Below are positions 171-27,062 of a DNA stretch of 64,000 bases, in pieces. Source of the stretch: Blasia pusilla. Lineage: Eukaryota. Numbering within the stretch: position 1 is the stretch's first letter; each line of letters begins with the position of its first letter. A program made the position numbers and the translations under genes. The stretch is from positions 32,116,001 through 32,180,000 of the forward strand of contig CM114271.1 in assembly GCA_050084515.1 (NCBI GenBank). The letters run 5' to 3'. Below the pieces are notes generated by a model, which saw nothing but the letters and a program-made list of their open reading frames with translations, was not told the origin of the DNA and did not search any database.

Positions 171-220
171 CAGTGTTGCCGGTGGTCTTATATGTAATCC
201 AAGTTTGGAGCCCTAGTTGT

Positions 221-272
221 AATGATAAATGGTAAATAGATCAAGCCCATGGAACCCAAAGGGTCAAAAGGT
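221..272 (-). mobile_element. Very short 5'-truncated LINE 3' end inserted in another LINE fragment
   Basis: Reverse complement of the LINE terminus ccttttgaccctttgggt..gcttgatctatttaccatt (compare 46507-46555). Confidence 0.75.
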
Positions 273-350
273 TCAGATCTGAAATCCTCAAATTCAGATT
301 CAGATCGAAAATCCTCTAATCTAAAAGAGCAGAAACTCAAATATCTCACA

Positions 351-1470: not shown

Positions 1471-1871
1471 GGTGCGGTAAGAGGAGAGGAAGAGAGGAAG
1501 AGAGGAGAGAGGAGAGAGGAAACTACCTTCAACCGAAATAGATACTTTTTTTTGAAGAGAATTTCCGTTGGGTTGAAGAGAGGAAACTTTTTGTGTGAAT
1601 ATTTTAGCACTTTTTTGTTCATTTATTAAACAATCCCACAGTTTTTTTTTCCTCTTCCATATTTTGGCAACCCCTGTGAGTCCGACGAGTTGCAAATTGC
1701 TCAAAATTTAGAAAACTGAAAAATCAGTGGAATCATAAGTGTGGAACCAATCACTTTTTCCATCCAAGGTCAGGAAAAAATCTATCATTTGCCCCGGGCT
1801 GAATAGAGTTCAAGCTCAAGGTGAAGGTTGAGGAAAAATAAAAATACAATCTAAAACCTCATTTTGCATCC

Positions 1872-4800
1872 TCAAAGTGGTTTGTTTAAAATACTTCGCA
1901 CTTCTTTGAGGGACAGAATTGGTTGGTGGATTCCTACTCCTACCTCCGACTCTCTTAAAACTACCAGCAACACATAGTACATGTGCTTACAAGGGAAATA
2001 CCTTTTGCCACTTGTCTCTCTTTGGACAAAGTCATCACATGAACATGTGGGAAAGCAACAAATGTGCACCACATACACCCCTGTGACACTTGAATTTACA
2101 GTGTTGTTCCTGACCCAATACATCCTTCCTATTCCATTGCCACTCAAGACATCTTTCGTGGCGATGATCTCCATTTTTGCCTCCCGAGCTGATGCAATTC
2201 GCTTTGCTCTCTCCACCGTTGGCCTGCACATTCTGTTTCTCTTCACCCCATTTCTAGACTCAAACAGAATTAATGGATTGAGATCAAACAGAATTAATGG
2301 ATTGAGATCATCCACCTTCTCCGGGTACATGTTGATATCAATCTTGGGTTGAATACGAAATGCGAAGGTCTCTATAATGCGAACATGCTCCGAACTTCCC
2401 CCGTCTACGAGTTTGAAACCGGCACTTGTAAGATTGTCCACTTCGTCTTGAGTGCAGTTCGTGCCTGCGGCGATGGGCCAAATCGTGGGGGTATTCCCGG
2501 GAGCTCCAATGGCAGCCTAAAAAAAACTTCCGGAAAGCGCAAGATTCATTTGGGCAGAAGAAGTACTTCAATTGATCCCCGGTCCTCGTGAAACGATCAA
2601 AGGTTTTGAGTCCCCAAAACCCAGGCAGAGGTCGTCCAGTCCTTGTACAGTTCTTATTTAGGAAAGTGCCGCATGCTCTCCTAATGCCATCAGATCCTGC
2701 CCTGCAGGTGGGTCCACGTCCTGGGTTGCTCCGAGATATATGCCACCGTTTTAGGTTGCAATCCACCTCCATTACCGGAATCCCATATTGTTGAACCACC
2801 CCAGTGATAGGATGTTGCGAACTTCCAGCAACGGAGGGCTTTTGAAATAAAACATTCACTGATTTTGGAGAAGTAACTCCATCACGGATTTGGGACGGGT
2901 CCGGGGTCCCCGAATACCTGGGCGGTGTAATTTCCTCATCCAAATCAATCACCGGATTCGTTCCTCGATGCTGCCTCTTCACCTGCCTGAAGTCAAGATA
3001 CTTATCTGGTCTCCACGAGTCTCGTTCGGACTGCTCTACCACCATCTGTATGGGATGTCTTGAAACCCGCCCACGAATATCCCCACCAATGTGTACGTCT
3101 TGCTCGAGTGGAGTTCCAACTACGCACCGGTTGAAGGCTTCGACATACAATTTTTCATCACCAGATCTCACAGCCGCCCTGACATAGAGCTCGTAGATCG
3201 ACGGCCCTTTTCCTTTTGTTATGCCTTTTGTGAGAAAGATATGGGATGCTGCAGACTGTAGCATTGCTCTTGCCTGGTCTTGTTGGCATGCCTCCACAAG
3301 TGAAATTCGTTGGCATGCTTGTGACGACCTCCAAGAGGAATGAACACTTTCTGCTCCACTTGTGTTGGGGCAGAGGGCATTTTCATGAACGTTCAATCCC
3401 TGCAACGACGGCAATGTTAGAAGGGAACGAAAATAACCCAGGAGTCAAAGAAATAAGGGACCTGTCGGAACCAGACGGGTTGTAGGCCCGAGGGATCCCA
3501 TGAATGACTCTGCGACCCGTCGGGTCCCGACGTGTTGTAACCTTAAACCCACCAACTGCAACCCGTCGGAACCTGACGGGTTGCAAGGCCGAGGCATCCC
3601 ATGAACGACTCTGTGACCCGTCGGGTCCCGAATGGTTGCACACTTGGGACGACACCAAACATCTGGATGCAACCCGTCGGTTTCCGTCAGGTTGCACCCT
3701 TGGGCAACCCATCGGTTTCCGTCGGGTTGCACACTCGGGCAACCCGTCGGTTTCCGTCGAGTTGCATACTCGGGCAACCCGTCGGTTTCCGTCGGGTTGC
3801 ACACTCGGGAAATTCGTCGCATCCGACAGCTTGCTTGGTTTCTTGGGTTTGAAATCCATATAATTCCCACGCTTCTCACCCTGAGCTTCAACTTTACAAA
3901 CAATTCTCAGCGTGAGCTTGACAAGAAAAAATAGTGAACTCACCTGCCGCATGAAGTTTCCCCATTGTCTCATACGTACAGTCCACCAACTCAACCAAGA
4001 GCACAACTCTTTGTACTTCCCCTCAATCGCATGCTTCCTCCACCACCCATGAAGTTCTTCCTGGCAGTCCATGGCCTGCTTCAAGGTTTTGCTGTCCTTG
4101 CAGCGTTGGAGTAGAGTGACATGCTCTGTCCTCTTATTCTCCTTGATGCAAGATTTGGTGTACCGGGTCACAGACTGTTGCCAATGGAAAGCATCCGACC
4201 TTTCCCTCTCAGGTTGAACCTCTCCACCCCAGAACACTTCCCGGATAGCAATCCACCCAGGTTGTGCATTGTCCGCCATGAACCCATAAATTTCCGGAGG
4301 TGGCCTTTTGTTTTCCTTCACCACCTCCAATAAGAGTAACCAGCACATCTTCAAACTGCCAACATCTTCTGCCTTTACTTCACACACAAATATAGTTTTG
4401 AGTCCCTTCTCCACATGGTCATAAACGTGAGCACCCATCGTCAACCATCCGTTCAGCACTCTGTAGCAAATATCAAAGCTGACCCAGCTCCCGTAAAGAT
4501 CTTCCCCTTCCCTCATTCGATCTATAAGATCGAGGCCACTCGACGGACCTGTGGTTGACATTTTGAAGACATAGGCCCTGGATCCCTCGCCTCCTTGGCC
4601 CATGAACTGCCATCTCTGAATGAATGGAAATCTGGAGTTGGCCTTGATTCTGGCGATGGCATCCATTTCGGCCGTCTTTCCATCCAGAACTCGTATCTGA
4701 CGCAGCAAATTCCGGAAGCATTCAGGATCAGCGAGAAATGCGAGATTTTCCCAGAGTTGTTTCTCCTCAACCGCCGTGATCTCGCCCTGTCCAGGGATTC

Positions 4801-5955
4801 CAAGCAATTGTTCACAAATTTGTGATGCCGTTGTGAGCTTGATCACCCCGGGCTTTGAACCCGGAGAGTTTCTGAAGACCTCGGCTACTTTCTTCGCCAC
4901 ATCCTCCTTGATGTGTCTTTGAATTGCATTGGTCACAGGATGAGTGTGGGAGCCAACATGAACTGCCAGCCTTGTATACTCTGACGTGGAACCCAAGTCA
5001 TGGATAATGAAAAATATGTATGCAGGACACGCCGAACGCAGAAGGGCGATGCCTGACAATGAGGACATCGATGGCCTCCCGGCGGTATTGTGGCACCCAC
5101 CTCGTATGGAGTTTCTGCATTCTTGGGGGGGAATTGCGACGTATTGACTCGCCCGTTGCGCTCTAGATACGGGCATGCTGGACTTCTACACTCCAAGGCT
5201 CCCACGCATTGGCGGCGGGAGACAATCCAAGGACCATCTGGGATGGAAGCACTGGTCCGTTGAAGCCTGCACCATCGATGACAATCAGACTTTCTGTCCA
5301 TACCCTTCAGGCGTCCTCCATCCTTCTTTTGAGCAGGAGCAGCAAGTGGAGGCAACTCAAAAATGCAGTTACCATCGTACGTGGGCGGCAGCTCGTCGAC
5401 AAGAATATGCTTGAACATTTTCAAGGGCAGAGACGAAAGCAAACTATTGCCTGATACTCGCAAGAGGAACGAGTAGGCGGACACAGGGCCCGATTGGTGT
5501 CCGACAGATCCGCTGAGGTTGATAACATCCGGAATCTCTTCAGGAAGAACAACATTGTTACGAGTGTGCGAAGTTGGAGTCGAAGCCGGATCTGCAGAGC
5601 TTGGAGTTGCAAACGTAGAGCTCGGAGCACTAGGAAATTCTAGACCGTCTACTTGGGAAACAGACGAATTCAGGGGCAGGCCGTAAACTCTGTATTGACC
5701 ATTTGCGACAGGTAGGAGATTCCATACTTTACGGTCTGAGGTCACTGGCTGGACCGTCTCACCTATTATGTCTTCCGTACCTTCCACCCTAACATCTTTG
5801 GATACAAAGATGGTTCCAATTTGAAGAAGAAATCGAACAGACAGAAAATTTTCATCCACTGCTACGAAAGACTCACGAGCTTGGGGTCGAATGATTTCTG
5901 ATTGAGGAAGGGCCGCCAGATGACTGCCACAAGTGAGCTTAACATAATTATCCAT
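1872..5955 (-). pseudogene. MULE-type DDE transposase with N-terminal GCM/WRKY-like zinc region and C-terminal SWIM finger (exons 5955-3944 and 3399-1872; frameshifts near 5040 and 2520)
   Basis: Motifs CVGALECRSPACP..CPHC..CPAY..HVGSHTHP; WVSFDICY (D1); GFMADNA (D2); RSDAFHW (CxxH position); TSGAESVH (E); CSCDDF..PCKH (SWIM). GT-AG intron 3943-3400 joins FMRQ|GLNV in frame. Confidence 0.8.
3460..3830. repeat. Array of 27-bp palindromes inside the transposase intron (partly 35-bp period)
   Basis: About 8 copies of gcaacccgtcgg-nnn-ccgacgggttgc variants. Confidence 0.9.
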
Positions 5956-6164
5956 TCCAAGAAGATTCCTACGGGAGGAGACCGAGAATGAGAATGAGAA
6001 TATTTAATTTATAGTGAATAGGAAACAGATACTCCTGACAGATTTTTACTGACAAGATGAATTCGGTGGGGGAGATTGTCTGACACAATGGATCCAATTC
6101 TGTAACACATTCAATTGTGTTGCAATATGTTACCGGATTTGGGAAGCAGAGGGTTGCGCATCAC

Positions 6165-6845
6165 TTGGAACCCGTCGGAGTCCTGGTAACTCAGAAATTA
6201 CCCGAAGCTTACCGAAGCCTGCAACCCGTCGGCATCGGACGGGTTGCACGCTTCTGCTAAACATTGTCGAAGCGAGCAACCCGTCGCTCTCCGACGACTT
6301 GCTGGGATACCGCTCCTTCTTGCTCGAAGATGCCGGAGGGGTGCAAACCGTCTGTTCCCGGCGAGGCGTGCAACCCGTCGCCGTCCAACGGGTTGCGCAA
6401 GGGCGTCGCCTTGTGGTGCAGCCAGCCAGACTTCGACGACTTGCACGGGAAGCCATCGTTCCTAACCCTTGATAAGGGAAGCCTGCAACCCAACAGTCTC
6501 CGACGGATTGCCCAAAATACGTCCCGTTCCCGTCCCAAACACGGCGGAGGCGCGCAACATGTCGGTCTCCGACGGCTTGCGCGGGTACCTCGCGTGGTTT
6601 TCCGAAGACGACGGAGGCGCTCAACCCGTTGGTCTCCGACGGGTTGCTCGCGCACATGGCGACGTTCGCAGGATGGCGGAGGCACGCAACATGTCGGTCT
6701 CCAACGGGTTGCGCGGGTACCTCGCGTTCTTTTCCGAAGACGACGGAGGCGCTCAACCCGTCGGGCTCCGACGGGTTGCTCGCGCACGTGGCGACGTACC
6801 CAGGATGGCGGAGCCGCGCAACCTGTCGGACTCCGACGGGTTGCA
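6165..6845. repeat. Palindrome array in the divergent intergenic/promoter region
   Basis: About 9 copies of the same motif, partly within a ~132-bp tandem duplication (about 6540-6810). Confidence 0.9.
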
Positions 6846-6933
6846 ATTTTTCACGTCCGGACTTCCGTAACATTCGGCACGTCGCCGTCGAAAGGACGAT
6901 GGGACCCAACGGTCAGCCCAACGGCTAGAAAAG

Positions 6934-6941
6934 TATAAATA
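6934..6941 (+). promoter_or_regulatory. TATA box of the ParB-MTase gene
   Basis: TATAAATA followed by a pyrimidine-rich leader, ~280 bp upstream of the ATG at 7216. Confidence 0.5.
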
Positions 6942-8434
6942 GGGCAGAAGTCGCTCATTTCCGGTTTCTCATTTCGCGATCTTCATTCCTCACTCCTCAC
7001 TCTCCCGCGCAGCAGCTGATCAGATACGAAGGGGCATTTCACGCGGCGACACATCGCGAGTCGATAGGACGGAACGAGAGCGAGACGGTTCGACCGAGCG
7101 ATATCGGGACGATTCGAGCTAACCACCAAGGCGAGACGAGCTCCCATCTCGACATCAGCAAGGCGACTGATCAAGGGATTCATCGTGGACATAGGCGGAG
7201 GCATTTCCGGCAAAAATGAAGAGGAAAATAACAAAAGCCAACAAGTCCGGGAGCTTCACTCCCAAGTCCATTAGGACTCCTGCGTCAGCTTCTCCTGCGC
7301 CTCGTTCGGCGAATGAAATTAGGCAGCAGGAAATCGAGGAGCGGGAAAGGGAAGCGGAGATGCACAACCAAGTGCTTCTGGCGAGACGTGTTCAAGCGGC
7401 GCTAGATAAACAGAACGAAGAGGCCGAGACGTCGCAGGCCTTGAAGAAAAGGATCGCCGACGAAAAGAGAGAAAAGAAGCGTCTGGACGCGTCGGTGAGG
7501 AGGGCGGAATTGGCTAAAGCGAGGCGGGAAAAAGCGATAGCCATTGACGATAGCCCAGCCCATCCAACCGCAAGTGTTGAGATGCGGGAAATGTTGGAAT
7601 CCCCGCGAAGTCCGGGGACACAATCAACATAGTGGAAACAACACCAGTTCAACTCGATGACGACGAGGTCATGAGGACCGCCAGCGTGGAGATGGTGGAC
7701 ATGGCGGAAGAAGCCGGAGAGCGGTCATTCTCGACTCCAAGCCCGGCGGAGGACATCGACCTCTATCGGATCGACGAGTTCCCAGTCGATTTGCCAGCCC
7801 CTGTCTCAGACAAGTTAGCTGGTCAAGAAACCGACTCCATTTTCGAGCGGGTAAGAGAGGTTCTGGGTTTTTTTAATTATGTGAATTGCAATTCATTGGG
7901 ATTTCAGTGTAGCTTATTCCTCTTGTCCCGGTTCTGACAGGTGGTAAAGCAGATGGCACTCATGGAGGGCCACAACGCCCCGAGGATTCCACTCTGCCGA
8001 TTAAGGACAATGGAATACGTCCGCGAAATACAGTCCGACGAGGACATCGCAAAGCTAAAACAATCGGCGGCGACAGCATCCTACGTGGACAGTTTTCCTC
8101 CCTTCTATGTTCAGCCTTACGACGAGCATGGAACCCAAGCTCTGGTTACCGAGGAGGACTTGGAAAATCTCGACACATTCTGGAGGATGCGAGACCAGGA
8201 CTTCAGAAGGCAAGTTGAGGGCACGGAATTCAGCTGGATGAGGAATCTGCATTTCTTCATCTGGGATGGAAATCACAGGTTCATGGCGTGGACCAAGTTT
8301 GCGGAGGAGCGCCCCAACTCATTGGAGGCACATTTCTGCGTGAAGGCAGTGGTCCTTCACCCATACCCTCATCACATGGCGACGGTGGAGATGGCAATGC
8401 ATGCCATGAACACGTAAGTATCTTTAACACTTTC

Positions 8435-9350
8435 GCAACTCGTCGGACTCCGACGAGTTGCTCGATTGATGAATGGGTTAGGTTTGTTTAGGCAGAAAGC
8501 AACTCGTCGGACTCCGACGGGTTGCTAGACTGCACGGTTTTCCGAATGTCTTTTTAAGATTGACACTCGTCGGACTCCGACGACTTGTTTGATGGAACAT
8601 AGATTTAACTAGTTTTTGGCCCAAAGCAAACCGCCGAGTCCGCGGGTTGCTGACAAAGTCGCCTTGTGAGGTTGTTTTTAAGAATGCAACTCGTCGGACT
8701 CCGACGAGTTGCTCGAGTGACTGCAGGTTTAGAAGGTTTTTGCCCCAAAGCAACCCGTCGGAGTCCGACGGGTTGCTTGCCTCGAAACTGTTTTTGGCCG
8801 AAATCAACCCGTCGGACTCGGACGGGTTGATTAGGGAAAAATAGCTTCGAGGCAAGCAACCCGTCGGACTCCGACGGGTTGCTTTGGGGCAAAACCTTCT
8901 AAACCTGCAGATCCTCGAGCAACTCGTCGGAGTCCGACGAGTTGCATTCTTAAAAACAACCTCACAAGGCGCCTATCAGCAAGCCGTCGGACTCCGGACG
9001 GTTTGCTTTGGGCCAACAACTTGTTAAATCTATGTTCAATCATACAAGTCGTCGGAGTCCGACGAGTTGCAATCTTAAAAAAACATCCGAAAAAGCGTGC
9101 AGTCCAGCAACCCGTCGGAGTCCGACGAGTTGCTTACCTGGCATTAGCAAATCTGAATGCAACCCGTCGGACTCCGACGGGTTGCTGGACTGCACACTTT
9201 TTCGGATGTTTTTTTAAGATTGCAACTCGTCGGACTCCGACGACTTGCTAGAATCCGACCCTGAGCTGTGACGACCCGTCGGAGTCCGACGGGTTGCTAG
9301 AATCCGACCCTGAGCTGTGACGACCCGTCGGAGTCCGACGGATTGCAGGA
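8435..9350. repeat. Palindrome array in intron 2 of the ParB-MTase gene, itself forming a long fold-back
   Basis: About 16 copies, mostly 50-65 bp apart; the region ~8500-8800 is inverted at ~8845-9135. Confidence 0.9.
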
Positions 9351-11504
9351 ACCCATGTAATTTCCTGACGGGTTGAGTTTGGATGTGCAGGATTGTATCG
9401 GAGGGGAATGTTACCCACCATTGGATCCAGGACTGCGATCGGGTGAGGAAGGTGCTTACGACGCACCCGGGAGAGTAGAGGGGGTTCTTGGGCGATGCCC
9501 TTGTCAATCAAATGCTTGCAAAGGGTGCTCAAATTAAGAAGAAAACTTGGGCAAACAAGTTTATTTCTCAAGATGCAGCCGTAACCATCCTTTGCTGGTC
9601 AAAGATACAGGCCGCGAAGAAAAGCGCTGCACTGGAGCTGGAGCGGAGGGAGAAGGTATCTGCGTCTGAGCGCGCCAAATTCATCCAAGCTGCTGTATCT
9701 GCTGCAACGAAATACACGGCGAGCAAGATGCAGCGATACATCAGCATTCTCAACCCCGAACTTGGTCCGGAGTTCTACAAGGAGCTCAAGGCGATTATCA
9801 AGCGTCAGCGGAAGAGGGATGAAGATCCGCATGGTCGGATTGGGGAGAAAGTGTCGCTGGATCGCGTGCATCGTTTTGCGTTATCCGGGATTAGCGAGTT
9901 CAGGAGGATACGACTGATGAAAATCAGTCTCGAGGGCTCAGAGGCCCAGAAGAGGGCGGCACACCATCCTCCAGGTGTGTCCGATCCAGTGATCTCGCAT
10001 TGGCTACGCGAATGGTCGTTCTGGGACGCGTTGCGGGTAATCGGGAAGTCCGTGCTGGACGGTCTGCAAGCGGAGCTCAGAAGATTAGAGCCCATTCCGC
10101 CGGAAGCAAACCTTGAAAGTTCTGGAGATTACGAGGTTTGGCTCGACGACATCCGGGACAAGCCAACAAAAAACCCAGGATTCAAGACCATGTTCAAGGT
10201 TTGCGTCCTCCCTCAGGCAGAGCTTGACGAAGAAGTAGAGGGTAACAAACGGGATCAAGCGAAGAAGAAGCGAGATCTACAGGAGCAGACGGCCGATAAT
10301 GTTCGACTAAAAGCTGCCCAACGGATGGTATTCAGGTACCTCGTCCAGTGTAAGAACGCAGGTACGTGGGGAAAATTGCCGGTAGCCTTGAAATTGTGGG
10401 CTTCGCCGCCGGATGCAGAGACATTCTCCATGTACGACGTGGAGATGGGTCAGCACATGTCGGATTGGGAGGTGGAGAATTGCCCCATTTGGCTCGACTT
10501 CAACGACCCTGAAGACATCACGGATAAGGACTTACGAGTGCTTCATGATGCAGTGGCCTCAGGACAAGACGACATCCCCAATTTCGTCCAGCCTGAAGAC
10601 TTCTTCGGAGGAGATGCAGAAGAGCAGGCCCACGAGACAGCTGAGTTGGCTTCCAAGGTCCGGACAGCCAAAGACAAATCCACAGCGGGTCTCAAAGGCA
10701 AGGCGAGGGGAGGGAAAAATTCAGAGGCCGAGACTTCCCAAAGAGAGCCTGAAGATGAGAGGCCAGAGGCGGAATCGTCCGGACGAGCGGGAAGAGAGGG
10801 TCGGACCAGGTCCTCGGCGAAGAAAACGCCACCAGAATCCGAGGTCATCGAAACCCCGACAAGCCGTCCCCAGACTAGAGAGAAGCGGAAGCGAGAGGTG
10901 CCCGGGTTGTCCCAAGGAGAATACAGCCCATCATCCTTGGGAAGACACAGACAAACAACGACCCGGACAAGCGTCCTCCTTCAGTTCACCTCTTTACTGG
11001 ATGAGCTGAACAGCTTCAGTTCTCAAGCGTCGACAACTGCCATCGAAAAATTGACAACGCTGGGAAGGAAGCTCCAACGAAACGGGCACGCTGCCTGGAC
11101 GGTGAATGGAGTGGTGGAAGAGGTTGCGGTGGATCTCTTGATCGCCGATCTGCCCTCGGGGTTGCGACTTTGGGGCGAAAATCCGGCGGACGAGGTACCT
11201 GAGTGGAATCTGCCGCTCACTTATGACCAGATTGCACTTTTGTTCTCCTTTGCAGACGCCTATCTGAGTGACAGGGGCTGCTTCTTGGTGTTGACTGGAG
11301 GGAGCGAGGACGAGCTCTTCAACCTCCAGTGCGTCAAGAGGTCGCTAAAGTGGAGGACGGCACAATCATGGATCATCAAAAACGAGTACCCACTCCGATC
11401 CGCAACGAGTCAGATTCGGGTAAGGCTATATTCCTGTACAATAATTTCAATTATCTTATAATGATGTGTAGAATGAGAGTCAGTCTGGGTTTTTTTTGTC
11501 CGTG

Positions 11505-11800
11505 AGCAACCCGTCGGAAGGCGACGGGTTGCTGGCTTAGAGCAGCCCATGCTCGGCTGAGAGCAACCCGTCGGTTTCCGACGGGTTGCAGTTGATTTTG
11601 GTTTTTGGATGCAACCCGTCTAATAGCGACGGGTTGCTCTCAGGCGAGCATGGGCTGGTCTAGGCCAGCAACCCGTCGCCTTCCGACGGGTTGCATCCGA
11701 AAACCAAAATCAACTTGGAAAACCCAAAAGCAACTGCAACCCGTCGGGTTCCGACGGGTGGGTCCGGGACAAAACAACCCGTCGGACTCCGACAGGTTGA
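11505..11800. repeat. Palindrome array in intron 3 of the ParB-MTase gene
   Basis: About 6 copies; further half or whole copies at 12613-12760 and subterminally at 1667-1693. Confidence 0.9.
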
Positions 11801-12862
11801 TCCAAAGTCAGTTATTGAAAATCTTCTCAAGGCGACTTCTTTAGTTTCTGACATTGTTTCGTGCTGATTTACAGATGGACCACTCCTACGTGTACTGCTT
11901 CGTTCGGCCCGAGCACAATTTCCAGGTGTTCAAGATCCAGGATCCTGTGGATCCATGCTCAGATGGGTACAGCTTAGATAGTTTGTACAATTCCCCCCCG
12001 GGAATTTACATGCAAGACAGTACCCCGCTTCTGGGAGGAAGGGAAAAGTCGCCAGCCCTGATGCAAACGCTCATCGAGCTCTGCTCAAGGCCGGGTGACT
12101 TGGTGTTCGACTTAGTGGGCCTTTCAGGGGCGAGTATCAGAGGCGCCTGGCAGAGTGGCAGGAACATTCTCTGCCTCGAGGGAAGGCAGGAACTGTTTGA
12201 CCTTTGCAAGGAGGCAAAGGCAGAATACGAAAGGCTCGTTGGGGCGTACAACTCTCCACCGAAGCCGAGAGCTCCGGTTCCAGAGCCACCCTTGGTAGTG
12301 ACTCCATCGTCACTTCCAACGATTCCCAAAATCGGGAGGGCAAGGCCGAAAGTGATTTTGCAAGAGCTCTCGGACGATGACGAGTGAGTTCAAAGAACTC
12401 AACGACCCAGCTTGACTGCAGCGTTTGGAGTAGGGAGTTTTTTGATAATTTGGCAAAAGATTTCATAGAATAGATCAAATGTACAGTTCCGAGCTTTTTT
12501 CGGATGATATAAAGCAGAAGATTTTTTCGATCGATGGTGGTGCTTGTAAATGTTTGCTGATCATTTTGTCTTTTCGAATGTGATCGTCTATGTACTCCAC
12601 GGTCTTCTACTTTGCAACCCGTCGGATTTCTCCTGCTTGCAATTTTCACTTTATGACCACTGCAACCCGTCGGATTTCTCCTCCTTGCAACTTTTCGCTT
12701 TTTGACCACTGGACCCTTTTTACCACCTCCAGGCAACCTGTCTGATTCCGACAGGTTGCCTGATCGGACCCTTTCGGATCAGGCAGTCTGGCGGGCTTCT
12801 TCCCTTGGCACCTTCCCCTCAACTCGTAAAGGCAGGCGTAGGCTTCTTTTCTTCTCTCAGAC

Positions 12863-13183
12863 GTGTTGGATTCCTTCTACCTGTGCGGTTGCCATAGTGG
12901 TATTACCGGGGACGGAGCAGATATTGATACTGGATGGGTGTCACATTGCAGAGCGTACAAGGTATACTGCCGAGGAAGGCGGTGGGACTCGAGACAGGTT
13001 ACATGGGACCGTTATGGTGTACCTAGGGGGGGGCCAAGGCTCTCGAATTCGCCAACATTTTCGATCCCCGTCTACAACCGGCCAGAGGAGCCACTTGAAT
13101 CCCAGGACATTCCTTTGGTACTGTCACCGAGGAGAGTTAGGAGTAAATTTGTAGATGACGAGGCTGAAGAAATCATAGACTAG
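12863..13183 (+). CDS. Possible small third ORF or exon of the Mutator-like element, function unknown
   Basis: 106-codon open frame ending in an acidic motif (SKFVDDEAEEIID); no ATG start and no recognised domain. Confidence 0.2.
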   Translation: MLDSFYLCGCHSGITGDGADIDTGWVSHCRAYKVYCRGRRWDSRQVTWDRYGVPRGGPRLSNSPTFSIPVYNRPEEPLESQDIPLVLSPRRVRSKFVDDEAEEIID

Positions 13184-14297
13184 GTTCAATGTACATTTCC
13201 GAGGTTCCTTCGGAGGTAATAAAGGACGAGATTTTTTGAACCCATAATGGTGTTTGTAAAAGTTTTCTGGAATATGTTTTTGGACTTGTGGAGGTGGTGC
13301 AAGAGAAAGGCCCAGCAGCAGGCTGTCCAAGAACAAGTCAAGAAGATTGTACAAGGTGATAATGCAGCCAAGTCACTCCATTGACCTCAAGCCTAGAGGA
13401 GACAAGGGAGATGGTGTAGGCACTAGGGAGTCTCCAGGGTATCCAATGAAGGAGATAGAGTGCTTGATTGCTGTTGTAGAGGAGGGTTTGAACCAAGGGG
13501 GTGGATCTGATTGTTAGGGCCAAGAAATGAAGAATAAGGGGCTAAGAAGAGGTCAATGGAGGCTGAGCTCAAATGCTTGGACTCTTGTGGGCTAGAAGAT
13601 TCCTCATGGAAGCCTAGAGGACCTCATTTGAAGGCCATAAAGCTTGAGAATCCAAGGGAGAGATCTATGGAGTTGAGAGGATCCAAGGAGTGATTTCTGG
13701 AAGATTTGTGCAGGTGGAGCTAAGTGGAGGTGTGAACTGAGGGCGGGGCTCGAACCAGATTGAGAAGAAGCAAGCATGGGAAGAATATAGAGGTAGATCT
13801 CACCTTCAAGCATGTCCAAGAGACAGGTCGAGCCTATGCCATCAATGTTGCTCAAGAGGCTTTAGTTAGGGCAGGTTCAGAAGTAGATGAGGTAGAAATT
13901 TCAGGCAGTAGATGCCTTGGAGTAGATGCTTAGGGTTGGCATCCGGGTGGTCCTCCAACAAAAATACCAAGGGCACTGCTTTTTGTTGACCGAGATGAGG
14001 AGATGTTAAGAAACTTAGGCTCACATGGAGAGTGATGGAAAAATGTTTGTAGTGGTCTTATGATGTCTACTTTTTTTTCGCCCCAAGGAAAAAGGAGGTT
14101 TTTTTAGGGCCAAATGTGGACCACTACCTACTCTCTTCTAAAGATTTCATGGATTTGAAAGCAAACAAAAATTTCAAATATGTCATAAAGTTTTGAAGAG
14201 AGGAGATGGATTTGGCCCTTTTTTTTGAAGAGAGACTCTCCTCTCTTCCTCTCTTCCTCTCCTCTCTTACTCTCTCCTGCCAGAATACCAGCCCCCC

Positions 14298-14768
14298 AAT
14301 ATCTTGATCTTCTACATATATCAAAGGTAGAAATTGAGACCTGATGAAAGTAGCAATACCGCCATAACCCCTTCTAGCCCGTTGCCTTCTTTGGTTCCAT
14401 GTCGATCCCACCAAAGTAAATCCTTGCATCTCCTCTCCAATAGTATTGCTCTCATGTTCCCAAGTCTCCACAATATTGATGATGTCCGCTATCTCCCAAA
14501 TTGATAGAGCACTCACATATTTTGTTGTTGAAAGGCCTTGTATATTCCACATAAACACTCTCAACTTCTTGGATTGCTAGGTTGATAGCTCTCTTTTTCT
14601 CTGGGTAACAATTGCTCGACCATCGCGTAGATAAGCAATAAAACCTGCTTCTTGAGCCTCTTTGACCTTGGCAAGCTCCTTTCTCCTAGCTTCGACTTGT
14701 AGAGGTGTAAGATCGGGATCCAACCATATCCTCTGTCTTTTGAGAATGGCCTTGTTAGCCATGGCAGT
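14298..14768 (-). pseudogene. Host LINE: ORF1 C-terminus and ORF2 endonuclease N-terminus
   Basis: AMANKAILKRQRIWLDPDLTPLQVEARRKEL and RVFMWNIQGL..IVETW match 42580-43045. Confidence 0.9.
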
Positions 14769-15222: not shown

Positions 15223-15233
15223 TGAGAAAGATG
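15220..15233 (+). promoter_or_regulatory. Putative self-priming primer binding site
   Basis: acatgagaaagatg is the exact reverse complement of 15045-15058 (catctttctcatgt), which starts ~25 bp downstream of the LTR TATA; no TGG tRNA-type PBS is present. Confidence 0.55.
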
Positions 15234-18627: not shown

Positions 18628-19619
18628 TGTCGCGACCCTCATGACCAAACAAGTGCCAAGCGGAACATCGGAACATTAGCGGGCTCACGCTAAGATGGTT
18701 TGCGCGTTGGAGTTGTCTCAAAGAGGAGACAAGAGATGAGACGCGAGCGAGAAGCCGCGTTTCAGATGTGATGGTCGCGACTCGGAAAGCTGGACCAAAC
18801 GCGGAATAAGACTTGAAAGAAGTCGAGTCTAGGAAGTGGGTTGCCAAAGGAAAGATCCGGACTTGGAACGCCACTTGCGTTTGAGAGTTTCCGACTGTAT
18901 TTATGGCCATAACTTTTAGCGCCGAGATGCGTTTGGAGCAGATAAGAGTGCGTTGGAAAGCTTATGGAGAGCCGGTTCAAACGCACCAAAGATCGCTGCA
19001 AACGCATAAGCAGCGGCCGAGATACAACCCGAAAACGACTGTAAGTGGAGTCGGGTTGAGGGCCACAATGAAGGGCCCGAACCTCTTTTCCCAAAGGGGA
19101 GGGGTTATTGGAGAACTCCAGAAGTACTAGTAAGGGGGAAGGTCTCCGAGAGTGCTTGGAACCCAAACCCCACTTTGGGCGGCTCAAGGGCATGGAACGA
19201 AACGCGAGTTTGGGCGTTGGGTTGGAAAACCTGCACCAAGTCCAATGAGGCGATTTTAGACATCCCTCTTGGATTTCACGCCGCGACTCAATTACTTGGG
19301 TCTCGGTTCGGAACTCACACGAGGACCGTTGAACAGTTGGGATCGCTAGGCGTGTAAGTGCCGTTTCAGATCCCTGGACTAACCAGGAAGTCTGTTCCAA
19401 GTCTTGAAGGACTTGCCATGTGTTGGGAGCTAGGAATTAAGGAAGGTTGAGCTTGATGAGACGCCGAGTTGAGGACTCGGTGGGTTGGAACGCCGGTTGG
19501 CCAAACCCGACTAACGAGAGTGCGTGTTTGGGTGCAGATCGGCGTTGAGTTCGTGACCTACTGAACGCACGCTTCCGCAACACTAAAGATTGACGTTCAA
19601 GGAGAGTAGGGGCGCGACA
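18628..19619 (+). repeat. Chromovirus 3' LTR (~990 bp)
   Basis: tgtcgcg...cgcgaca termini; homologous to 53802-54785 (minus). Confidence 0.92.
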
Positions 19620-22428
19620 GTACGTATGAGACAATGGGGAAACTTCATGCGGCAGGTGAGTTCACTATTTTGTCTTGTCAAGCTCACACTGAGAATTGTT
19701 TGTAAAGTTGTAGCTCAGGGTGAGAAGCGTGGGAATTATATGGATTTCAAACCCAAGAAACCAAGCAAGTTGTCGGATGCGACGGGTTGCCCGAGTGTGC
19801 AACCCGACGGAAACCGACGGGTTGCATTTAGATTTTTGGTGCAACCCGAGTGTGCAACCCGAGTGTGCAACCCGTCGAGACCCGACGGGTCATAGAGTCG
19901 TTCATGGGATGCATCGGCCTTGCAACCCGTCTGGTTCCGACGGGTTGCAGTAGGTGGGTTTAAGGTTACAACACGTCGGGACCCGACGGGTCGCAGAGTC
20001 GTTCATGGGATGCCTCGGGCCTACAACCCATCTGGTTCCGACAGGTTGCTTATTTCTTTGACTCCTGAGTTATTTTCGTTCCCTTCTAACATTGCCGTCG
20101 TTGCAGGGATTGAACGTTCATGAAAATGCCCTCTGCCCCAACACAAGTGGAGCAGAAAGTGTTCATTCCTCTTGGAGGTCGTCACAAGCATGCCAACGAA
20201 TTTCACTTGTGGAGGCATGCCAACAAGACCAGGCAAGAGCAATGCTACAGTCTGCAGCATCCCATATCTTCCTCACAAAAGGCATAACAAAAGGAAAGGG
20301 GCCGTCGATCTACGAGCTCTATGTCAGGGCGGCTGTGAGATCTGGTGATGAAAAAATGTATGTGGAAGCCTTCAACCGGTGCGTAGCTGGAACTCCACTC
20401 GAGCAAGACGTACACATTGGTGGGGATATTCGTGGGCGGGTTTCAAGACGTCCCATACAGATGGTGGTAGAGCAGTCCGAACGAGACTCGTGGAGACCAG
20501 ATAAGTATCTTGACTTCAGGCAGGTGAAGAGGCAGCATCGAGGAACGAATCCGGTGATTGATTTGGATGAGGAAATTACACCGCCCAGGTATTCGGGGAC
20601 CCCGGACCCGTCCCAAATCCGTGATGGAGTTACTTCTCCAAAATCAGTGAATGTTTTATTTCAAAAGCCCTCCGTTGCTGGAAGTTCGCAACATCCTGTC
20701 ACTGGGGTGGTTCAACAATATGGGATTCCGGTAATGGAGGTGGATTGCAACCTAAAACGGTGGCATATATCTCGGAGCAACCCAAGACGTGGACCCACCT
20801 GCAGGGCAGGATCTGATGGCATTAGGAGAGCATGCGGCACTTTCCTAAATAAGAACTGTACAAGGATTGGACGACCACTGCCTGGGTTTTGGGGACTCAA
20901 AACCTTTGATCGTTTCACGAGGACCAGGGATCAATTGAAGTACTTCTTCTGCCCAAATGAATCTTGCGCTTTCCGGAAGTCTTATCCGGCTGCCATTGGA
21001 GCTCCCGGGAATACCCCCATGATTTGGCCAATCGCCGTAGGTACGAACTGCACTCAAGATGAAGTGGACAATCTTACAAGTGCCGGTTTCAGACTCGTAG
21101 ACGGGGGAAGTTCGGAGCATGTTTGCATTACAGAGACCTTCGCATTTTGTATTCAACCCAAGATTGATGTCAACATGTACCCGGAGAAGGTGGATGATCT
21201 CAATCCATTGTTTCTGTTTGAGTCTAGAAATGGGGTGAAGAGAAACAGAATGTGCAGGCCAACGGTGGAGAGAGCAAAGCGAATTGCAGCAGCTCAGGAG
21301 GCAAAAATGGAGATCATCGCCACAAAAGATGTCTTGAGTGGCAATGGAATAGGAAGGATGTATTGGGTCAGGAACAACACTGTAAATTCAAGTGTCAAAG
21401 GGGTGTATGTGGTGCACATCTGCTGCTTTCCCACATGTTCATGTGATGACTTTGTCCAAAGAGAGACAAGTGGCAAAAGGTATTTTCCTTGTAAGCACAT
21501 GTACTATGTAATGGTAAATGGTAAATGGTAAATACATCAAGCCCGTGGGACCCAAAGGGTCAAAAGGCTGAAAAACACATTACAAGTCATTCATGCACTG
21601 ACCCTGAAAAATATCGTTAAGACCTTCTCCTAGCTACAACCTTGAGCACTTGAGCGATGAATAATGACGTCCCTAATATAACAACCTAAATCATACAGCA
21701 CTAGCTGTAGTAAAGAATAGAAATTCTCCACATCTATTTTATGAGCTAGTCTAATCTCTTCATACCTTGGACATGTAACAAACACATGCTCTTCATCCTC
21801 AATATTTTCTTCGTCACATAACCTACAAATTCGTTCACTTCTATCAATTTAAAACCATCGTCCTTCCTCAATTCCTAGCCTATGTGACCCAGTTCTACAT
21901 GTTGCTGGTAGTTTTAAGAGAGTCGGAGGTAGGAGTAGGAATCCACCAACCAATTCTGTCCCTCAAAGAAGTTTAAAGTATTTTAAACAAACCACTTTGA
22001 GGATGCAAAATGAGGTTTTAGATTGTACTTTTATTTTTTTCTCAACTTTCACTTTGAGCTTGAACTCTATTCAGCCCCGGGCAAATGACAGATTTTTTCC
22101 ACACCTTGGATGGAAAAAGTGATTGGTTCCACACTTATGATTCCACTCTTTTCAGTTTTCTAAATTTTGAGCAATTTGCAACTCGTCGGACTCAGAGGGG
22201 TTGCCAAAATATGGAAGAGGAAAAAAAAACTATGGGACTGCTTAATATATGAACAAAAAAGTGCAACAAATTCAAACAAAAATTTTCCTCTCTTCAACCC
22301 AACAGAAACTCTCTTCAAAAAAAAGTATCTATTTCGGTTGAAGGTAGTTTCCTCTCTCCTCTCTCCTCTCTCCTCTCTTCCTCTCTCCTCTCTCCTCTCT
22401 TCCTCTCTTCCTCTCCTCTTACCGCACC
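19620..22428 (+). mobile_element. Second, truncated copy of the Mutator-like element (transposase 3' part and terminus), opposite orientation
   Basis: Highly similar to the reverse complement of 1471-3980; intron 19656-20106 with palindromes; exon 20107-22000 with GAESVH and SWIM; ends ..cttaccgcacc. Confidence 0.92.
21510..21899 (-). mobile_element. 5'-truncated LINE insertion in the SWIM-coding region of MULE copy 2
   Basis: Reverse complement of LINE 46178-46555 with a (TTTACCA)3 tail; flanks rejoin as in copy 1 (catgtactatgt|gttgctgg). Confidence 0.92.
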
Positions 22429-25400
22429 TCATCCATGTCGTCACGTCCACGAGTTGGACCATTGCCTACAGGGTCTGTACAGGCATTGGCTGGGGGCGAG
22501 ACGAGGAGAGATAGGCACCCATGGACTTCCTGGGACGTCGTTCGAGCAGAGAGTGCGAAGGCGGCTAGAGTAGCACATGTTCATTTTTTGGATGTGGAGC
22601 ATGCTGTAGGAGGTTAGAGTGGAGTGGCTGTTGCGGAGGTGGCTAGGATTGCTACATAGCAACAAAAGCCGGAGGTTGCGTCCTCTCCGAGTGAGGTCAC
22701 GATGGAGACTTGGGAGCCTGTGATAGGTCTCAAGTTGATAGGAGGAGAGCGACGGCGAGTTCATAGGTTTCTGAGAGGGCATGTCAGTTGTTTTGCCTTC
22801 AGTATGAGAGACTTGGGTACGCTGAAGGGTCCCGGGATACGGATTGAGTTGGCTAGTGATACGCCGATCTTTCGTCGACCCTACAGGTATTCTGATATGG
22901 AGCGAGCCTTGATTCAGAGCAGGAGTCAGGACTTGTTGGAGGCAGGACTTGTGGAGTTATCACATGGGGAGTATGCATCTGCCACAGTCATGCCGGCGAA
23001 GAAGGATATGTATGGCAATTGGACGGATAGGCGGATGTGTGGAGATTACCGTCCTATCAACCGACAGACGAGGTCAGATCGGTATGCCATGCCTACTCCT
23101 GAGGAGATCTTTGATGCGGTAGGGCATGCAAAGATCTTCAGTACTTTAGATCTCCGTGCTGGCTATCATCAGCTTCCTATCAGGTTGGAGGACAGGGAGA
23201 AGACAACATTCTGGGGGATAAATTGGTTCGGGAGAGATTTCTTGTATCAGTAGCGGTTCTTACCATTTGGGTTGAAGAACGCGCCTGCGGAGTTTCAGAG
23301 AGTGATGGATAGGATTCTGGCTGGCTTGGATTTTGTACGATGTTACATAGATGATATTCTTATCTTCAGTTCCACGGTTGAGGAGCATGAGCGACACTTG
23401 GAGGAGGTGTTTCGGCGATTGCAGTTACATGGACTGAAGTTACATCCAGGCAAGTGCAGATTCTTTCAGGAGCAGATTGAGTACTTGGGACACACCATAT
23501 ACCCGAGTGGGTTAGGCGTTCAGCAGACAAAGGTAGAGGCTATTGCGCAGATTCCACACCCTACAGATGTGAGTCGAGTCCGAGCATTTCTTGGACTGGA
23601 AAACTTCTATCGACGGCATGTCAAGGGTTTTAGTGCGATCGCAAAGTCTTCGACCTTGTTGACGAGACTTGATCAGGTGTGGTTGTGGGGAGATGATCAG
23701 GAGCGAGCATTTCAGGAGCTCAAGGACAGGTTGACGTCCTCACCCATTTTAGAGAGACCGGTTAGGGGTCGCCCATTCCAGTTACATACGGATTGGAGCA
23801 TGTTGGGTCTAGGAGCAGTGCTTACTCAGAGGGATGACGAGGAGAGGGAGTTTTTGTGGCTTACGCGAGCCGATCGAACAACATTGCAGAGGCGAAGTAC
23901 AACTCCTACGAGGGAGAGTGCTTGGCTGCAGTGTGGGCCGTGGCACATTTTAGGTGCTATTTATTTGGCAACCCTTTCACACTTATCACTGATCATCAGC
24001 CGTTGAGGTGGTTGATGGAGTCCGACAAGCTTACGAGAAAGCTTGCCAGGTGGGCTCTATTACTACAAGAGTATGAGTTTGAGGTGTGTAATGTCTAAGT
24101 GTTTCTTATTTACAGTCAATTGTAGAGTTCGATCCCCAGAAGGATCATTGTTGGATGAAAAGAGAGTATAAAGTGATGATTATGTTGTAAAAGTGTAATT
24201 GATTATGTAATTCAAATGTAATATTCCAGTAACATCTTCCGATCCCTTTTTAGTACCTATGTTTTCTTCTTCAATTCTCTCGAGTGGAGTTTAAAGTACG
24301 CTCAGGTAATTTGTTCTCTCGACATCTCGGAACCTCACAGAGACCTCAAGAATAAAGTTGGCTTCTCCTACTTTCGGAACTCAATCCGTCGGGGCAGGTT
24401 ACTCTCTGTCAAACAGATTTCATACAACTTTATGTTGATTATTCCATTGATGAGAAAGGTTAGCCTGATTCACTCTTCACTCGGCAGACCCAAAAAGAAT
24501 ATTCAGACATAAGCATCGCACATCAGAATGAATGAATGAATGCTTTACTACTCCATCAAGAATTGGAAGACTTCAAAGTATATACAAGCTCGAGAGGGTA
24601 CAACTCTCTTGCTCGGACCATTCCTACAGCATAAGGACGTCATGAGCGAATGATCATCATAGCTTCTGTCCTGTTTCTTAAATATTCTCGAGAGTAGGAG
24701 CGTTTCTATGATCCGAAGCGTTCTTGATGAAGTTGGTGTCTCTTCAATATCTGTAACTACCTAGATCTATGGTTCTCTTAGCTTTTCCTACGATCCCTAT
24801 GAATCCGCGGTACAAAACTGTTCTAACTACCAATTTGATACAAAGGGTCGCGCCCTTTCCTAGTCTAATTGTTTAAACTATGTGTCGGTTCGAATCACAA
24901 TCATGCTGAGCTTCGCTGCGCTAAATTTCCGGAGGACGAAGTTCTTCACTCTTCTTCGTGCTTCGTGCTTCGCTCTTCGCTCTTCGTGCTTCGTGCTTCG
25001 TGCTTCGGTCAAGAGCGAGGTACTTCGTATATAGAGCTTCGTTGAGCTTCGTTAGACTTTGTTAAGCTTCGCTGAGCCTCGCTTTGATCCTTTATACTTC
25101 TTTACAGCTTTTGATTCTCCTCTAAGGCAAATCCTTGATCTTCCATCTCTCTGCCTTGTCTTAGGAGCTTGGTGATTCACTTATTCTTTTTCATAATAAT
25201 AAATAATCATAATCAAAATCATAATATACAAGAGTCTTCGTTGAATAAAAAGATATATTCTTCAAGATTACAAAATTGTAGGTATCACAAGGTGGTTCAT
25301 AGGCCAAGTCGGCTGAACCAGGATGCGGATGGGTTGAGTCATAACCCATGTCCGAGTCAGAGAGACGTCACGGGAGCTCGATGGCACGGAGAGAGTGATG

Positions 25401-26986: not shown

Positions 26987-27062
26987 GGTAGTAGGTCATG
27001 TTAGAGAGATGTGATATTTTCTATCTGGAGTTAGGGGAATCCAACTGCCAGCTAGGGGGGCG

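What the first reader, a model, noticed from the sequence alone, without database searches (positions are those of the whole stretch)
1667..12760. About 40 copies of a 27-bp CpG-rich palindrome confined to non-coding parts of the element: candidate parS-like binding sites
Seen: GCAACCCGTCGG-N3-CCGACGGGTTGC (12-3-12) fills the transposase intron, the divergent promoter region, introns 2 and 3 of the cargo gene, the 3' region and one subterminal site. I found none in exons or outside the two element copies. A symmetric variant (GCAACTCGTCGG..CCGACGAGTTGC) keeps the palindrome. Established: ParB dimers load at palindromic parS sites and spread; VANC proteins bind short motifs amplified in non-coding regions of their own VANDAL family. 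Inference: the motif is the cis target of the ParB-MTase, forming a protein-plus-site self-recognition system.
Basis: partly seen in the sequence, partly recalled or inferred. Interest (0 to 1): 0.88.

Follow-up and report, generated by a model that had tools for sequence, protein, structure and literature searches.

The report
Transposon-specific palindrome arrays, probable binding sites
A 12.8-kb plant DNA transposon has filled its own promoter and introns with about 40 copies of one 27-base palindrome, most likely docking sites for a protein the transposon itself encodes, much like a known self-recognition system of Arabidopsis transposons.

Summary
GCAACCCGTCGG-N3-CCGACGGGTTGC occurs 37 times at 3 or fewer mismatches, against 0 expected. 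At a looser cut there are 39 copies in the full element, all in non-coding DNA: transposase intron 8, divergent intergenic region 9, cargo intron 2 14, cargo intron 3 6, and one near each end. None lies in exons or outside the two element copies.

The element is longer than reported: 1471-14298, with a 9-bp target duplication.

The arms are conserved (1.54 bits per position), while spacer and flanks are not. Arm-arm covariation is weak. This fits two protein half-sites better than a selected hairpin.

One related family from metagenomes has a different palindrome, YCAACTT-N10-AAGTTGR, at similar positions beside the same cargo gene.

The cargo's C-terminal domain has a beta-class DNA-methyltransferase fold but no canonical catalytic motif. 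Its ParB likeness rests on leads only.

Best reading, about 0.45: binding-site arrays for an element-encoded protein, probably the cargo. Rivals are transposase binding and neutral hairpin satellites.

ParB-domain transposon cargo with inverted-repeat arrays has been described in red algae, so this is a new variant of a known kind, not a new category.

The parts
1471..14298 (.). Whole element (12,828 bp), Mutator-like by its ends
   Evidence: The 9-bp direct repeat ATATCTTGA occurs only twice in the window, at 1462-1470 and 14299-14307. It flanks GA-rich inverted termini. Copy 2 shares sequence with copy 1 from 1468 inward.
1471..1521 (+). Left terminal inverted repeat, GA-rich
   Evidence: The 30-mer at 1480-1509 is identical to the reverse complement of 14236-14265. 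The tips are imperfect.
14236..14298 (-). Right terminal inverted repeat
1667..1693 (.). Left subterminal palindrome copy (4 mismatches), 197 bp inside the end
   Evidence: It is conserved in copy 2 at 22178-22204.
1872..5955 (-). Putative DDE transposase gene. Exons are about 5955-3944, 3399-2545 and 2489-1872. A frame change lies near 5011-5032.
   Evidence: Homologues were found (15 proteins; 152 stretches). The exons are collinear in relatives. The SWIM finger is weak (E 0.014). There is no Pfam MULE match.
3400..3943 (-). Transposase intron holding 8 palindrome copies (3457-3800)
   Evidence: GT-AG boundaries are read. In six relatives the gap at the same position is only 102-123 bp.
5956..7215 (.). 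Divergent intergenic region. It has 9 palindrome copies (6221-6844) between a TATAAAT on the minus strand (6007-6013) and one on the plus strand (6934-6940).
7216..12387 (+). Cargo gene. Exon 1 is 7216-7850 with a frame change near 7581-7630. Exon 2 is 7941-8414 and carries the WDGNHR domain. Exon 3 is about 9390-11419 with a frame change near 9476. Exon 4 is 11875-12387 and carries the methyltransferase motif I region.
   Evidence: PF01555 matches at E 1.4e-4, 22.3 bits, below the 26.7 cut-off.
8415..9389 (+). Cargo intron 2, with 14 palindrome copies (8435-9346) in higher-order direct and inverted repeats
11420..11874 (+). Cargo intron 3, with 6 palindrome copies (11506-11800)
12614..12759 (.). 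3' region of the cargo gene. It has two exact half-sites (12614, 12662) in a 48-bp tandem repeat and one full palindrome (12733-12759).
19616..22431 (-). Partial second copy, equivalent to 1468-3983 and inverted, with 6 palindrome copies. It lies inside an LTR retrotransposon.
   Evidence: The inverted repeats are 91-100% complementary..

Best explanation
The 27-bp palindromes are cis-acting arrays of two-half-site binding sites. They recruit a dimeric protein encoded by the element itself to the element's own regulatory and intronic DNA. That protein is most probably the cargo protein: a WDGNHR (ParB-like) N-domain, a helical middle part and a beta-class methyltransferase-like C-domain.

High local site density between the two TATA boxes and inside both genes would give family-specific recognition. 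The likely outcome is control of the element's chromatin or methylation state and of transcription of the two divergent genes. This is the logic shown experimentally for VANC and VANDAL.

Shown here: the restriction of the motif, its conservation as a unit, its position, and the existence of a second family with a different palindrome.

Inferred: that a protein binds, which protein it is, and what binding does.
For: - The motif is confined to the element within 64 kb.
- All 39 copies in the full element lie in non-coding DNA, in six separate clusters.
- Information content is 1.54 bits per position in the arms, 0.58 in the spacer and 0.18 in the flanks. Arrays in different compartments share only the 12-nt arms.
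- Arm-arm covariation is close to the shuffled expectation: 88.3% against 87.2% paired, with 25 of 500 shuffles as high. Each arm is therefore kept for its own sequence, as for half-sites.
- The arrays sit between two TATA boxes of a bidirectional promoter.
- The transposase intron is 102-123 bp in six relatives but 544 bp here, the excess being the array.
- The related L028/L031/L034 family is about 80% identical among its copies. It carries 21 copies of a different palindrome, YCAACTT-N10-AAGTTGR, inside the cargo gene and between the divergent genes.
- I grouped the 80 loci into lineages by hand, from shared match statistics; an automated clustering did not separate them. I kept only the nine lineages with at least 3 kb on the 5' side, plus the window, which makes 10. 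Arrays occur in 2 of the 3 lineages with a detectable cargo fragment and in 0 of the 7 without one. By my arithmetic this has a chance probability of 3/45.
- Published parallels:
  - VANC21 binds motif arrays in introns, intergenic and terminal non-coding parts of VANDAL21 (PMC5735166, passages read).
  - Inverted-repeat arrays lie next to the ParB-domain cargo of Plavaka elements (10.1101/2025.02.11.637652, section 8 read).
Against: - No binding data exist.
- No DNA-binding fold was recognised in the cargo.
- ParB homology was not detected by any profile method.
- The L059/L060 lineage has a cargo-like WDDNHR fragment but no palindrome arrays.
- The comparative sample is small and its lineages are not independent.
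- Both genes of this copy carry frame changes, so this copy itself cannot supply the protein.
- Repeats are tolerated only in non-coding DNA, so their absence from exons is partly trivial.
- Restriction to this family genome-wide is untested.
Confidence: 0.45

Rival explanations
1. The palindromes are bound by the transposase through its N-terminal zinc-finger region, not by the cargo. They would act as transposase-dependent enhancers or autoregulatory sites of the two genes.
For: - The transposase N-terminal part has conserved Cys/His columns typical of a zinc-finger DNA-binding domain.
- One copy lies near the left end, at 1667.
- A 2026 preprint reports that the AtMu1 transposase alone activates cognate copies in a sequence-specific way (10.64898/2026.08.24.746577, abstract and outline read).
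- The comparative association with arrays is equally compatible with a shared transposase specificity in the two array-bearing families.
Against: - The terminal inverted repeats, where a transposase must bind, are GA-rich and lack the motif. The nearest copies are 197 bp and about 1.5 kb inside the ends.
- Seven transposase lineages without detectable cargo have no arrays.
Confidence: 0.2
2. The arrays are neutral, hairpin-prone minisatellites. They expand by slippage, template switching and ectopic conversion within the element, and they are seen only in non-coding DNA because exons cannot tolerate them.
For: - The arrays are tandem and higher-order repeats with periods of 35, 67/132, about 125 and 49 bp.
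- Copy number differs between the two copies: four 35-bp units at 3669-3809 against about one and a half in copy 2.
- Many copies are decayed, mostly by C>T changes (31 of 86 substitutions).
- Single strands fold into very stable hairpins of -10 to -15 kcal/mol, z about -6 to -7.5.
Against: - The same 12-nt arm is kept in five compartments whose spacers and flanks are unrelated.
- The arrays are placed at the bidirectional promoter.
- A second family keeps a different palindrome at comparable positions after about 20% divergence of its copies.
Confidence: 0.2
3. The palindromes act through RNA or host factors. Either intronic hairpins in the pre-mRNAs feed small-RNA pathways, or the CCGAC cores recruit host AP2/ERF-type factors. 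The identification of CCGAC as such a core is recalled from memory, not tested.
For: - Introns 2 and 3 and the transposase intron would form long hairpins. For example, 137-nt arms are 92% complementary at 8497-8633 and 8999-9135.
- Each palindrome holds two inverted CCGAC pentamers.
Against: - Nine copies lie in the untranscribed intergenic region.
- There is no excess of compensatory changes.
- Conservation extends over all 12 nt of each arm, with A4, T24 and G26 invariant, well beyond a 5-bp core.
- No Rfam family matches.
Confidence: 0.1

Closest known systems
VANC21 target arrays of Arabidopsis VANDAL21 (Hosaka et al. 2017, PMC5735166; passages read)
   Same: - Both are Mutator-type elements with an accessory gene.
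- One short motif is amplified as dynamic tandem repeats in introns of the element's genes, upstream of the transposase and in terminal non-coding DNA.
- The motif is rare elsewhere.
- Related families carry different motifs.
   Different: - The VANC motif is a 9-bp non-palindromic word arrayed in one orientation. Here the motif is a 27-bp palindrome.
- The cargo protein is unrelated to VANC: it has a methyltransferase-like fold and a WDGNHR domain.
- Binding and hypomethylation are shown for VANC but not here.
ParB-domain accessory proteins of algal transposons. Examples are Plavaka PAG3 (ParB plus 2OG oxygenase) with adjacent tandem arrays of inverted repeats in Bostrychia (10.1101/2025.02.11.637652, section 8 read), and the 1104-aa ParB-like plus DNA-methyltransferase gene of Ectocarpus Sola1-1 (PMC12477816, passages read).
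   Same: - The accessory gene lies on the strand opposite to the transposase.
- A bacterial-type N-domain is fused to a nucleic-acid-modifying fold.
- Inverted-repeat arrays lie beside or within the accessory gene.
- Self-binding of the protein to its own element is the published hypothesis.
   Different: - The transposon superfamily and the host lineage differ. The named relatives here are liverworts and a fern.
- No sequence link to the algal proteins was found.
- ParB homology is not demonstrated here.
- The catalytic motif IV is non-canonical.
- The arrays also fill the transposase intron.
- The supplements of both papers, which may show the algal repeat sequences, could not be seen.
Bacterial ParB-parS partition sites
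   Same: Both are palindromic sites, often several, recognised by a dimer encoded next to them.
   Different: - No ParA partner, no recognised helix-turn-helix domain and no ParB_N profile match were found.
- The exact motif occurs 0 times in 185,579 prokaryotic species genomes and 0 times in IMG/VR.
- A partition function has no obvious role for an integrated eukaryotic transposon.
Beta-class N6-adenine/N4-cytosine DNA methyltransferases (PF01555; CcrM, M1.HpyAVI, M.BceJIV, MboIIA)
   Same: - The fold of the confident part of the model matches. The top Foldseek hit is CcrM 6pbd, E 3.1e-4, probability 1.00.
- The motif order is IV then I.
- PHROG DNA-methyltransferase families match at E 8.7e-7 and 1.2e-5.
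   Different: - Motif IV is D-[LMIFV]-P-[TS]-G, with no (D/N/S)PP(Y/F/W/H) in 112 family proteins.
- Pfam scores are below the gathering cut-off in all five proteins that match PF01555. One further Riccia protein, P0088, is listed with a precomputed PF01555 match.

Membership tests
ParB/parS system | Protein with a ParB N-terminal (PF02195) domain | tested here: inconclusive
   There is no Pfam, NCBIfam or PHROG hit to the N-domain. The PDB profile search found nothing. hhalign against P1 ParB gave probability 0.07. The model has pLDDT below 50-70 there. The leads are WDGNHR in 39 of 112 family proteins, ESM-Atlas neighbours with ParB_N at 0.95/0.94 and 0.92, and DUF1015 at E 0.021.
ParB/parS system | Helix-turn-helix DNA-binding domain next to the N-domain | tested here: not met
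   The confident helical domain (residues 140-400 of P0013, pLDDT about 90) has no Foldseek match better than E 0.19 in the PDB.
ParB/parS system | ParA-type ATPase partner encoded nearby | tested here: not met
   The ten longest ORFs of 1-30000 that were scanned gave only retrotransposon domains. The element holds two genes.
ParB/parS system | Site bound by the protein, with spreading or CTP dependence | not testable with these tools
   This needs EMSA, DAP-seq or ChIP.
VANC-type anti-silencing system | [quoted passage not shown] | tested here: met
   Specificity is shown only within the 64-kb window.
VANC-type anti-silencing system | Accessory protein homologous to VANC | not tested
   No VANC sequence was compared. 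The cargo family gives only weak, sub-threshold Pfam matches, chiefly to PF01555.
VANC-type anti-silencing system | Binding causes loss of DNA methylation and derepression | not testable with these tools
Beta-class DNA amino-methyltransferase (PF01555) | Fold and motif order IV then I | tested here: met
   Foldseek hits are CcrM, M1.HpyAVI, M.BceJIV and MboIIA. The PF01555 C-terminal end matches at E 1.4e-4 to 9.4e-6. PHROG DNA-methyltransferase families match.
Beta-class DNA amino-methyltransferase (PF01555) | Catalytic motif IV (D/N/S)PP(Y/F/W/H) | tested here: not met
   0 of 112 family proteins have it. D-[LMIFV]-P-x-[GH] stands in its place, and the window has DLPSG.
Beta-class DNA amino-methyltransferase (PF01555) | Pfam gathering score | tested here: not met
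   The window scores 22.3 bits against a cut-off of 26.7. Riccia members score 23.7-26.2. One member, P0088, has a precomputed PF01555 hit.
Mutator-like (MULE) DNA transposon | 9-10 bp target-site duplication and long terminal inverted repeats | tested here: met
   The 9-bp ATATCTTGA occurs only at the two ends. The GA-rich inverted termini have a 30-nt exact core but imperfect tips.
Mutator-like (MULE) DNA transposon | MULE DDE domain and SWIM finger recognised by profiles | tested here: inconclusive
   No MULE Pfam hit was found in the window ORFs or in seven homologues. SWIM matches at E 0.014, 15.3 bits, below the 19.6 cut-off. DDE-like motifs are my reading of the sequence only.
ParB-domain transposon accessory gene with inverted-repeat arrays (Petroll et al. 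2025) | Accessory gene opposite the transposase, fused to a modifying-enzyme fold, with arrays of inverted repeats adjacent | tested here: met
   The fold is. The ParB part itself is inconclusive, as above.

The most novel reading that the evidence does not exclude
A bryophyte-type transposon lineage carries a bacterial-derived protein whose methyltransferase fold has been remodelled: motif IV is conserved as D-phi-P-T/S-G. This protein reads co-evolving palindrome arrays planted in the element's own bidirectional promoter and introns. The result would be a self-addressed chromatin or DNA-marking, or anti-silencing, system. It would have arisen independently of VANC and would be shared in principle with algal ParB-type cargo.
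Probability: 0.3. Interest if true: 0.8.

Novelty: new variant of a known kind. Interest (0 to 1): 0.6.

Why it matters
If the arrays are the address label of an element-encoded reader, three things follow.

- Land-plant transposons outside the VANDAL group also use protein-plus-site self-recognition.
- The bacterial-type ParB-like/methyltransferase cargo proposed for red, green and brown algal transposons would have a counterpart in bryophytes. This family is amplified in bryophytes: at least 80 gene models in Riccia sorocarpa.
- The two palindrome types found here are GCAACCCGTCGG-N3 and YCAACTT-N10. They give a ready specificity-swap experiment, and a possible programmable DNA-targeting module.

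Tried and rejected
Whole genome and earlier findings
- No whole genome is held, so no family-wide scan was possible.

Sequencing reads
Splicing, expression, copy number and methylation were therefore not examined.
- The look-up of sequencing runs listed no RNA holder.

Dimer test
- Complex prediction of two copies of the ParB-like plus helical part returned no verdict.

ParB homology
- Tried without result: Pfam at E up to 10, NCBIfam, PHROGs, a PDB profile search, hhalign against P1 ParB and tblastn against plasmids.
- A proper ParB_N profile could not be assembled. The genome search had no handle, and the phage methyltransferases hit are stand-alone enzymes of about 250 aa.

Cargo and transposase searches
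- The helical middle domain has no fold match.
- A profile search for algal relatives of the cargo found only Riccia sequences and two unnamed ones.
- The transposase is not recognised by Pfam.

Hairpin selection
- I considered it and set it aside because covariation is weak.

Shared CAAC...GTTG edge
- I considered that the two palindrome types are homologous. The spacing differs (N17 against N14), so this is left open.

Central GANTC
- Copies with an ACT or AGT spacer read GACTC or GAGTC at the centre, which matches the CcrM site GANTC as I recall it. Only 18 of 45 copies have this spacer, so I drew no inference.

Locus clustering
- Single-linkage clustering of the long loci by blastn merged nearly all of them through other shared repeats.

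Papers
- The paper with PubMed id 21507349, cited for ParB-methyltransferase fusions, is not held.
- Supplements of the algal papers were not seen.

Full report
**Observation**

A search for GCAACCCGTCGG-N3-CCGACGGGTTGC with up to 3 mismatches gives 37 matches. The mean is 0.00 in 100 dinucleotide-preserving shuffles.

With a looser rule (6 or fewer mismatches, each arm 4 or fewer) there are 45 copies, 39 in the full element and 6 in a partial second copy. A few more copies carry indels.

Half-sites at 2 or fewer mismatches number 93. Of these, 81 lie in 1667-12760, 11 in the second copy and one stray at 24381. None lies in the 36 kb from 28001 to 64000.

The exact motif is absent from 185,579 prokaryotic species genomes and from IMG/VR. 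No Rfam family matches the first 30 kb.

**Anatomy of the element**

- Copy 1 and the inverted partial copy (19616-22431) share sequence from 1468 inward.
- The 9-mer ATATCTTGA occurs only twice in the window, at 1462-1470 and 14299-14307. It sits immediately outside GA-rich inverted termini that share a 30-nt exact core.
- I therefore place the element at 1471-14298 (12,828 bp) with a 9-bp target-site duplication, which is Mutator-like.

On the minus strand lies a putative transposase.
- Its family is rare: 15 proteins, and 152 confirmed stretches in JGI metagenomes.
- Pfam does not recognise it, apart from a weak SWIM match at E 0.014.
- Its three coding parts are collinear in relatives. In six of them the first gap is 102-123 bp. 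In the window the same gap is 544 bp (3400-3943) and holds eight palindromes.

On the plus strand, starting at 7216, lies the cargo gene.
- Its exon borders have GT-AG.
- The exons align collinearly with full-length homologues.

Both genes of this copy have frame changes: near 5011-5032, 7581-7630 and 9476. Some lie at homopolymer runs, so they may be decay or assembly error.

**Placement of the motif**

None of the 39 copies lies in the 7,240 bp of exons. They form six clusters:

| Location | Copies |
|---|---|
| Transposase intron | 8 |
| Divergent intergenic region | 9 |
| Cargo intron 2 | 14 |
| Cargo intron 3 | 6 |
| 197 bp inside the left end | 1 |
| After the cargo stop codon | 1, plus two exact half-sites |

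The intergenic array (6221-6844) lies between a TATAAAT on the minus strand (6007, 52 bp before the transposase ATG) and one on the plus strand (6934, before the cargo ATG at 7216).

CpG observed/expected is 1.03-1.32 in the four array-bearing segments, against 0.65 in the rest of the window. This is partly by construction, since each copy has four CpGs.

**What is conserved**

- Across the 39 copies the arms carry 1.54 bits per position, the 3-nt spacer 0.58 and the 12-nt flanks 0.18.
- The consensus units of the four arrays share only the arms.
- Substitutions are dominated by C>T (31 of 86).
- Pairing of the arms is barely above the shuffled expectation: 88.3% against 87.2%, with 25 of 500 shuffles as high. 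Cells changed on both sides number 7 against 3.2, with 18 of 500 shuffles as high. The tool warns that related sequences reach such values without any constraint.
- The variant also sits in a higher-order repeat. Both changes are C>T at mirrored positions.

I therefore read the palindrome as two individually conserved half-sites, not as a selected stem. Single strands would nevertheless fold into very stable hairpins.

**Relatives**

Among 80 metagenome loci encoding related transposases, none carries the window's motif beyond single chance half-sites.

Three loci (L028/L030, L031/L032/L061 and L034) are copies of one family, about 80% identical in DNA. That family has:
- the same divergent layout;
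- a WDGNHR-type exon and a motif-IV-type exon on the strand opposite to the transposase;
- 21 copies of another palindrome, YCAACTT-N10-AAGTTGR. These lie in 51-bp arrays inside the cargo gene and in a looser array between the two genes.

Other lineages have ordinary direct tandem repeats or none.

An automated clustering of the long loci merged nearly all of them, so I grouped the lineages by hand from shared match statistics. I kept only the lineages with at least 3 kb on the transposase 5' side. The window makes ten.
- Arrays occur in 2 of the 3 lineages with a detectable cargo fragment.
- Arrays occur in 0 of the 7 lineages without one.
- The exception is L059/L060, which has a WDDNHR fragment but no arrays.

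This is suggestive only: 3/45 by my arithmetic, and the lineages are not independent.

**The cargo protein**

The family is small in the 1.84-billion-protein library: 39 hits, the best at 34% identity. The named members are from Riccia sorocarpa, R. fluitans and the fern Adiantum. At least 80 gene models are spread over the R. sorocarpa chromosomes, as expected of transposon cargo.

The C-terminal domain is methyltransferase-like.
- It matches the end of PF01555 below the gathering score.
- It matches PHROG DNA-methyltransferase families at E 8.7e-7.
- The confident part of its model has CcrM as the top Foldseek match, followed by other beta-class adenine methyltransferases.
- None of 112 family proteins has a (D/N/S)PP(Y/F/W/H) motif. 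D-[LMIFV]-P-[TS]-G is conserved in its place. The domain may therefore be inactive or retargeted.

The N-domain is not shown to be ParB.
- It bears WDGNHR in 39 of the 112 proteins.
- Its language-model neighbours include ParB_N clusters, and also DUF3723 and DUF6551.
- No profile or structure comparison confirms ParB.
- No DNA-binding fold was recognised.

**Comparison with the literature**

- VANC21 of VANDAL21 binds a 9-bp motif arrayed in introns, intergenic and terminal non-coding DNA of its own family and removes methylation. Related families have different motifs (PMC5735166, passages read).
- For red algae, ParB-domain cargo (PAG3) with adjacent tandem arrays of inverted repeats has been described, and self-binding proposed (10.1101/2025.02.11.637652, section 8 read).
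- A ParB-like plus DNA-methyltransferase gene lies opposite the transposase of Ectocarpus Sola1-1 (PMC12477816, passages read).
- A 2026 preprint shows that a Mutator transposase alone can activate cognate copies (10.64898/2026.08.24.746577, abstract and outline read). This keeps the transposase rival alive.
- My three searches listed no paper describing such cargo with palindrome arrays in land plants. The supplements of the algal papers were not available.

**Verdict**

The most likely reading (0.45) is that these are arrays of half-site pairs that recruit an element-encoded protein, probably the cargo, to the element's own promoter and introns. The rivals are transposase binding (0.2), neutral hairpin satellites (0.2) and RNA or host-factor action (0.1).

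It is a new variant of a known kind. It is worth an EMSA or DAP-seq test and a family-wide motif survey.

Noticed in passing
window 14812-27683: This is a Ty3/gypsy chromovirus-type LTR retrotransposon. LTR segments 14812-15219 and 27249-27683 are about 97% identical. RNase H, integrase and chromodomain lie at 15914-17902, and a second integrase at 25139-26293. The partial inverted copy of the DNA transposon (19616-22431) lies inside it.
   Followed up: partly
window 1-400 and 28423-28994: A satellite of about 176 bp occurs on both sides of the 28-kb block of nested transposons. The block may therefore have inserted into a satellite array.
   Followed up: no
window 8435-9346: In copies with an ACT or AGT spacer (18 of 45 copies, mostly in intron 2) the centre reads GACTC or GAGTC. 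This fits GANTC, the site of CcrM, whose fold is the best match of the cargo's C-domain. The CcrM site is recalled from memory. Other arrays have TTT, TCT or other spacers.
   Followed up: partly
window 13132-13320 and 12419-12580: The end and 3' untranslated region of the cargo gene are partly duplicated downstream, by local alignment. An ORF at 12842-13183 ends in an acidic tail like that of the cargo protein.
   Followed up: no
window about 5011-5032, 7581-7630 and 9476: Frame changes occur in both element genes, some next to G or C runs. They could be decay of this copy or homopolymer errors of the assembly.
   Followed up: partly
L028 1457-1640; L034 2165-2600; L031 3403-3580: In the related family each 51-bp unit is itself a palindrome of about 45 bp (GCTCTTGG..TCAACTT..AAGTTGA..CCAAGAGC). 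The array is thus a chain of long hairpin units.
   Followed up: partly
L031 about 8380-10000, compared with L028 4984-10010: L031/L032/L061 look like internal-deletion derivatives. They keep the intergenic palindrome array but lack the transposase N-terminal part and part of the WDGNHR exon.
   Followed up: partly
proteins P0041, P0043, P0044, P0064: UniRef names several Riccia members 'Trimethylguanosine synthase'. The Pfam and fold evidence here points to a PF01555-type DNA methyltransferase fold instead.
   Followed up: yes
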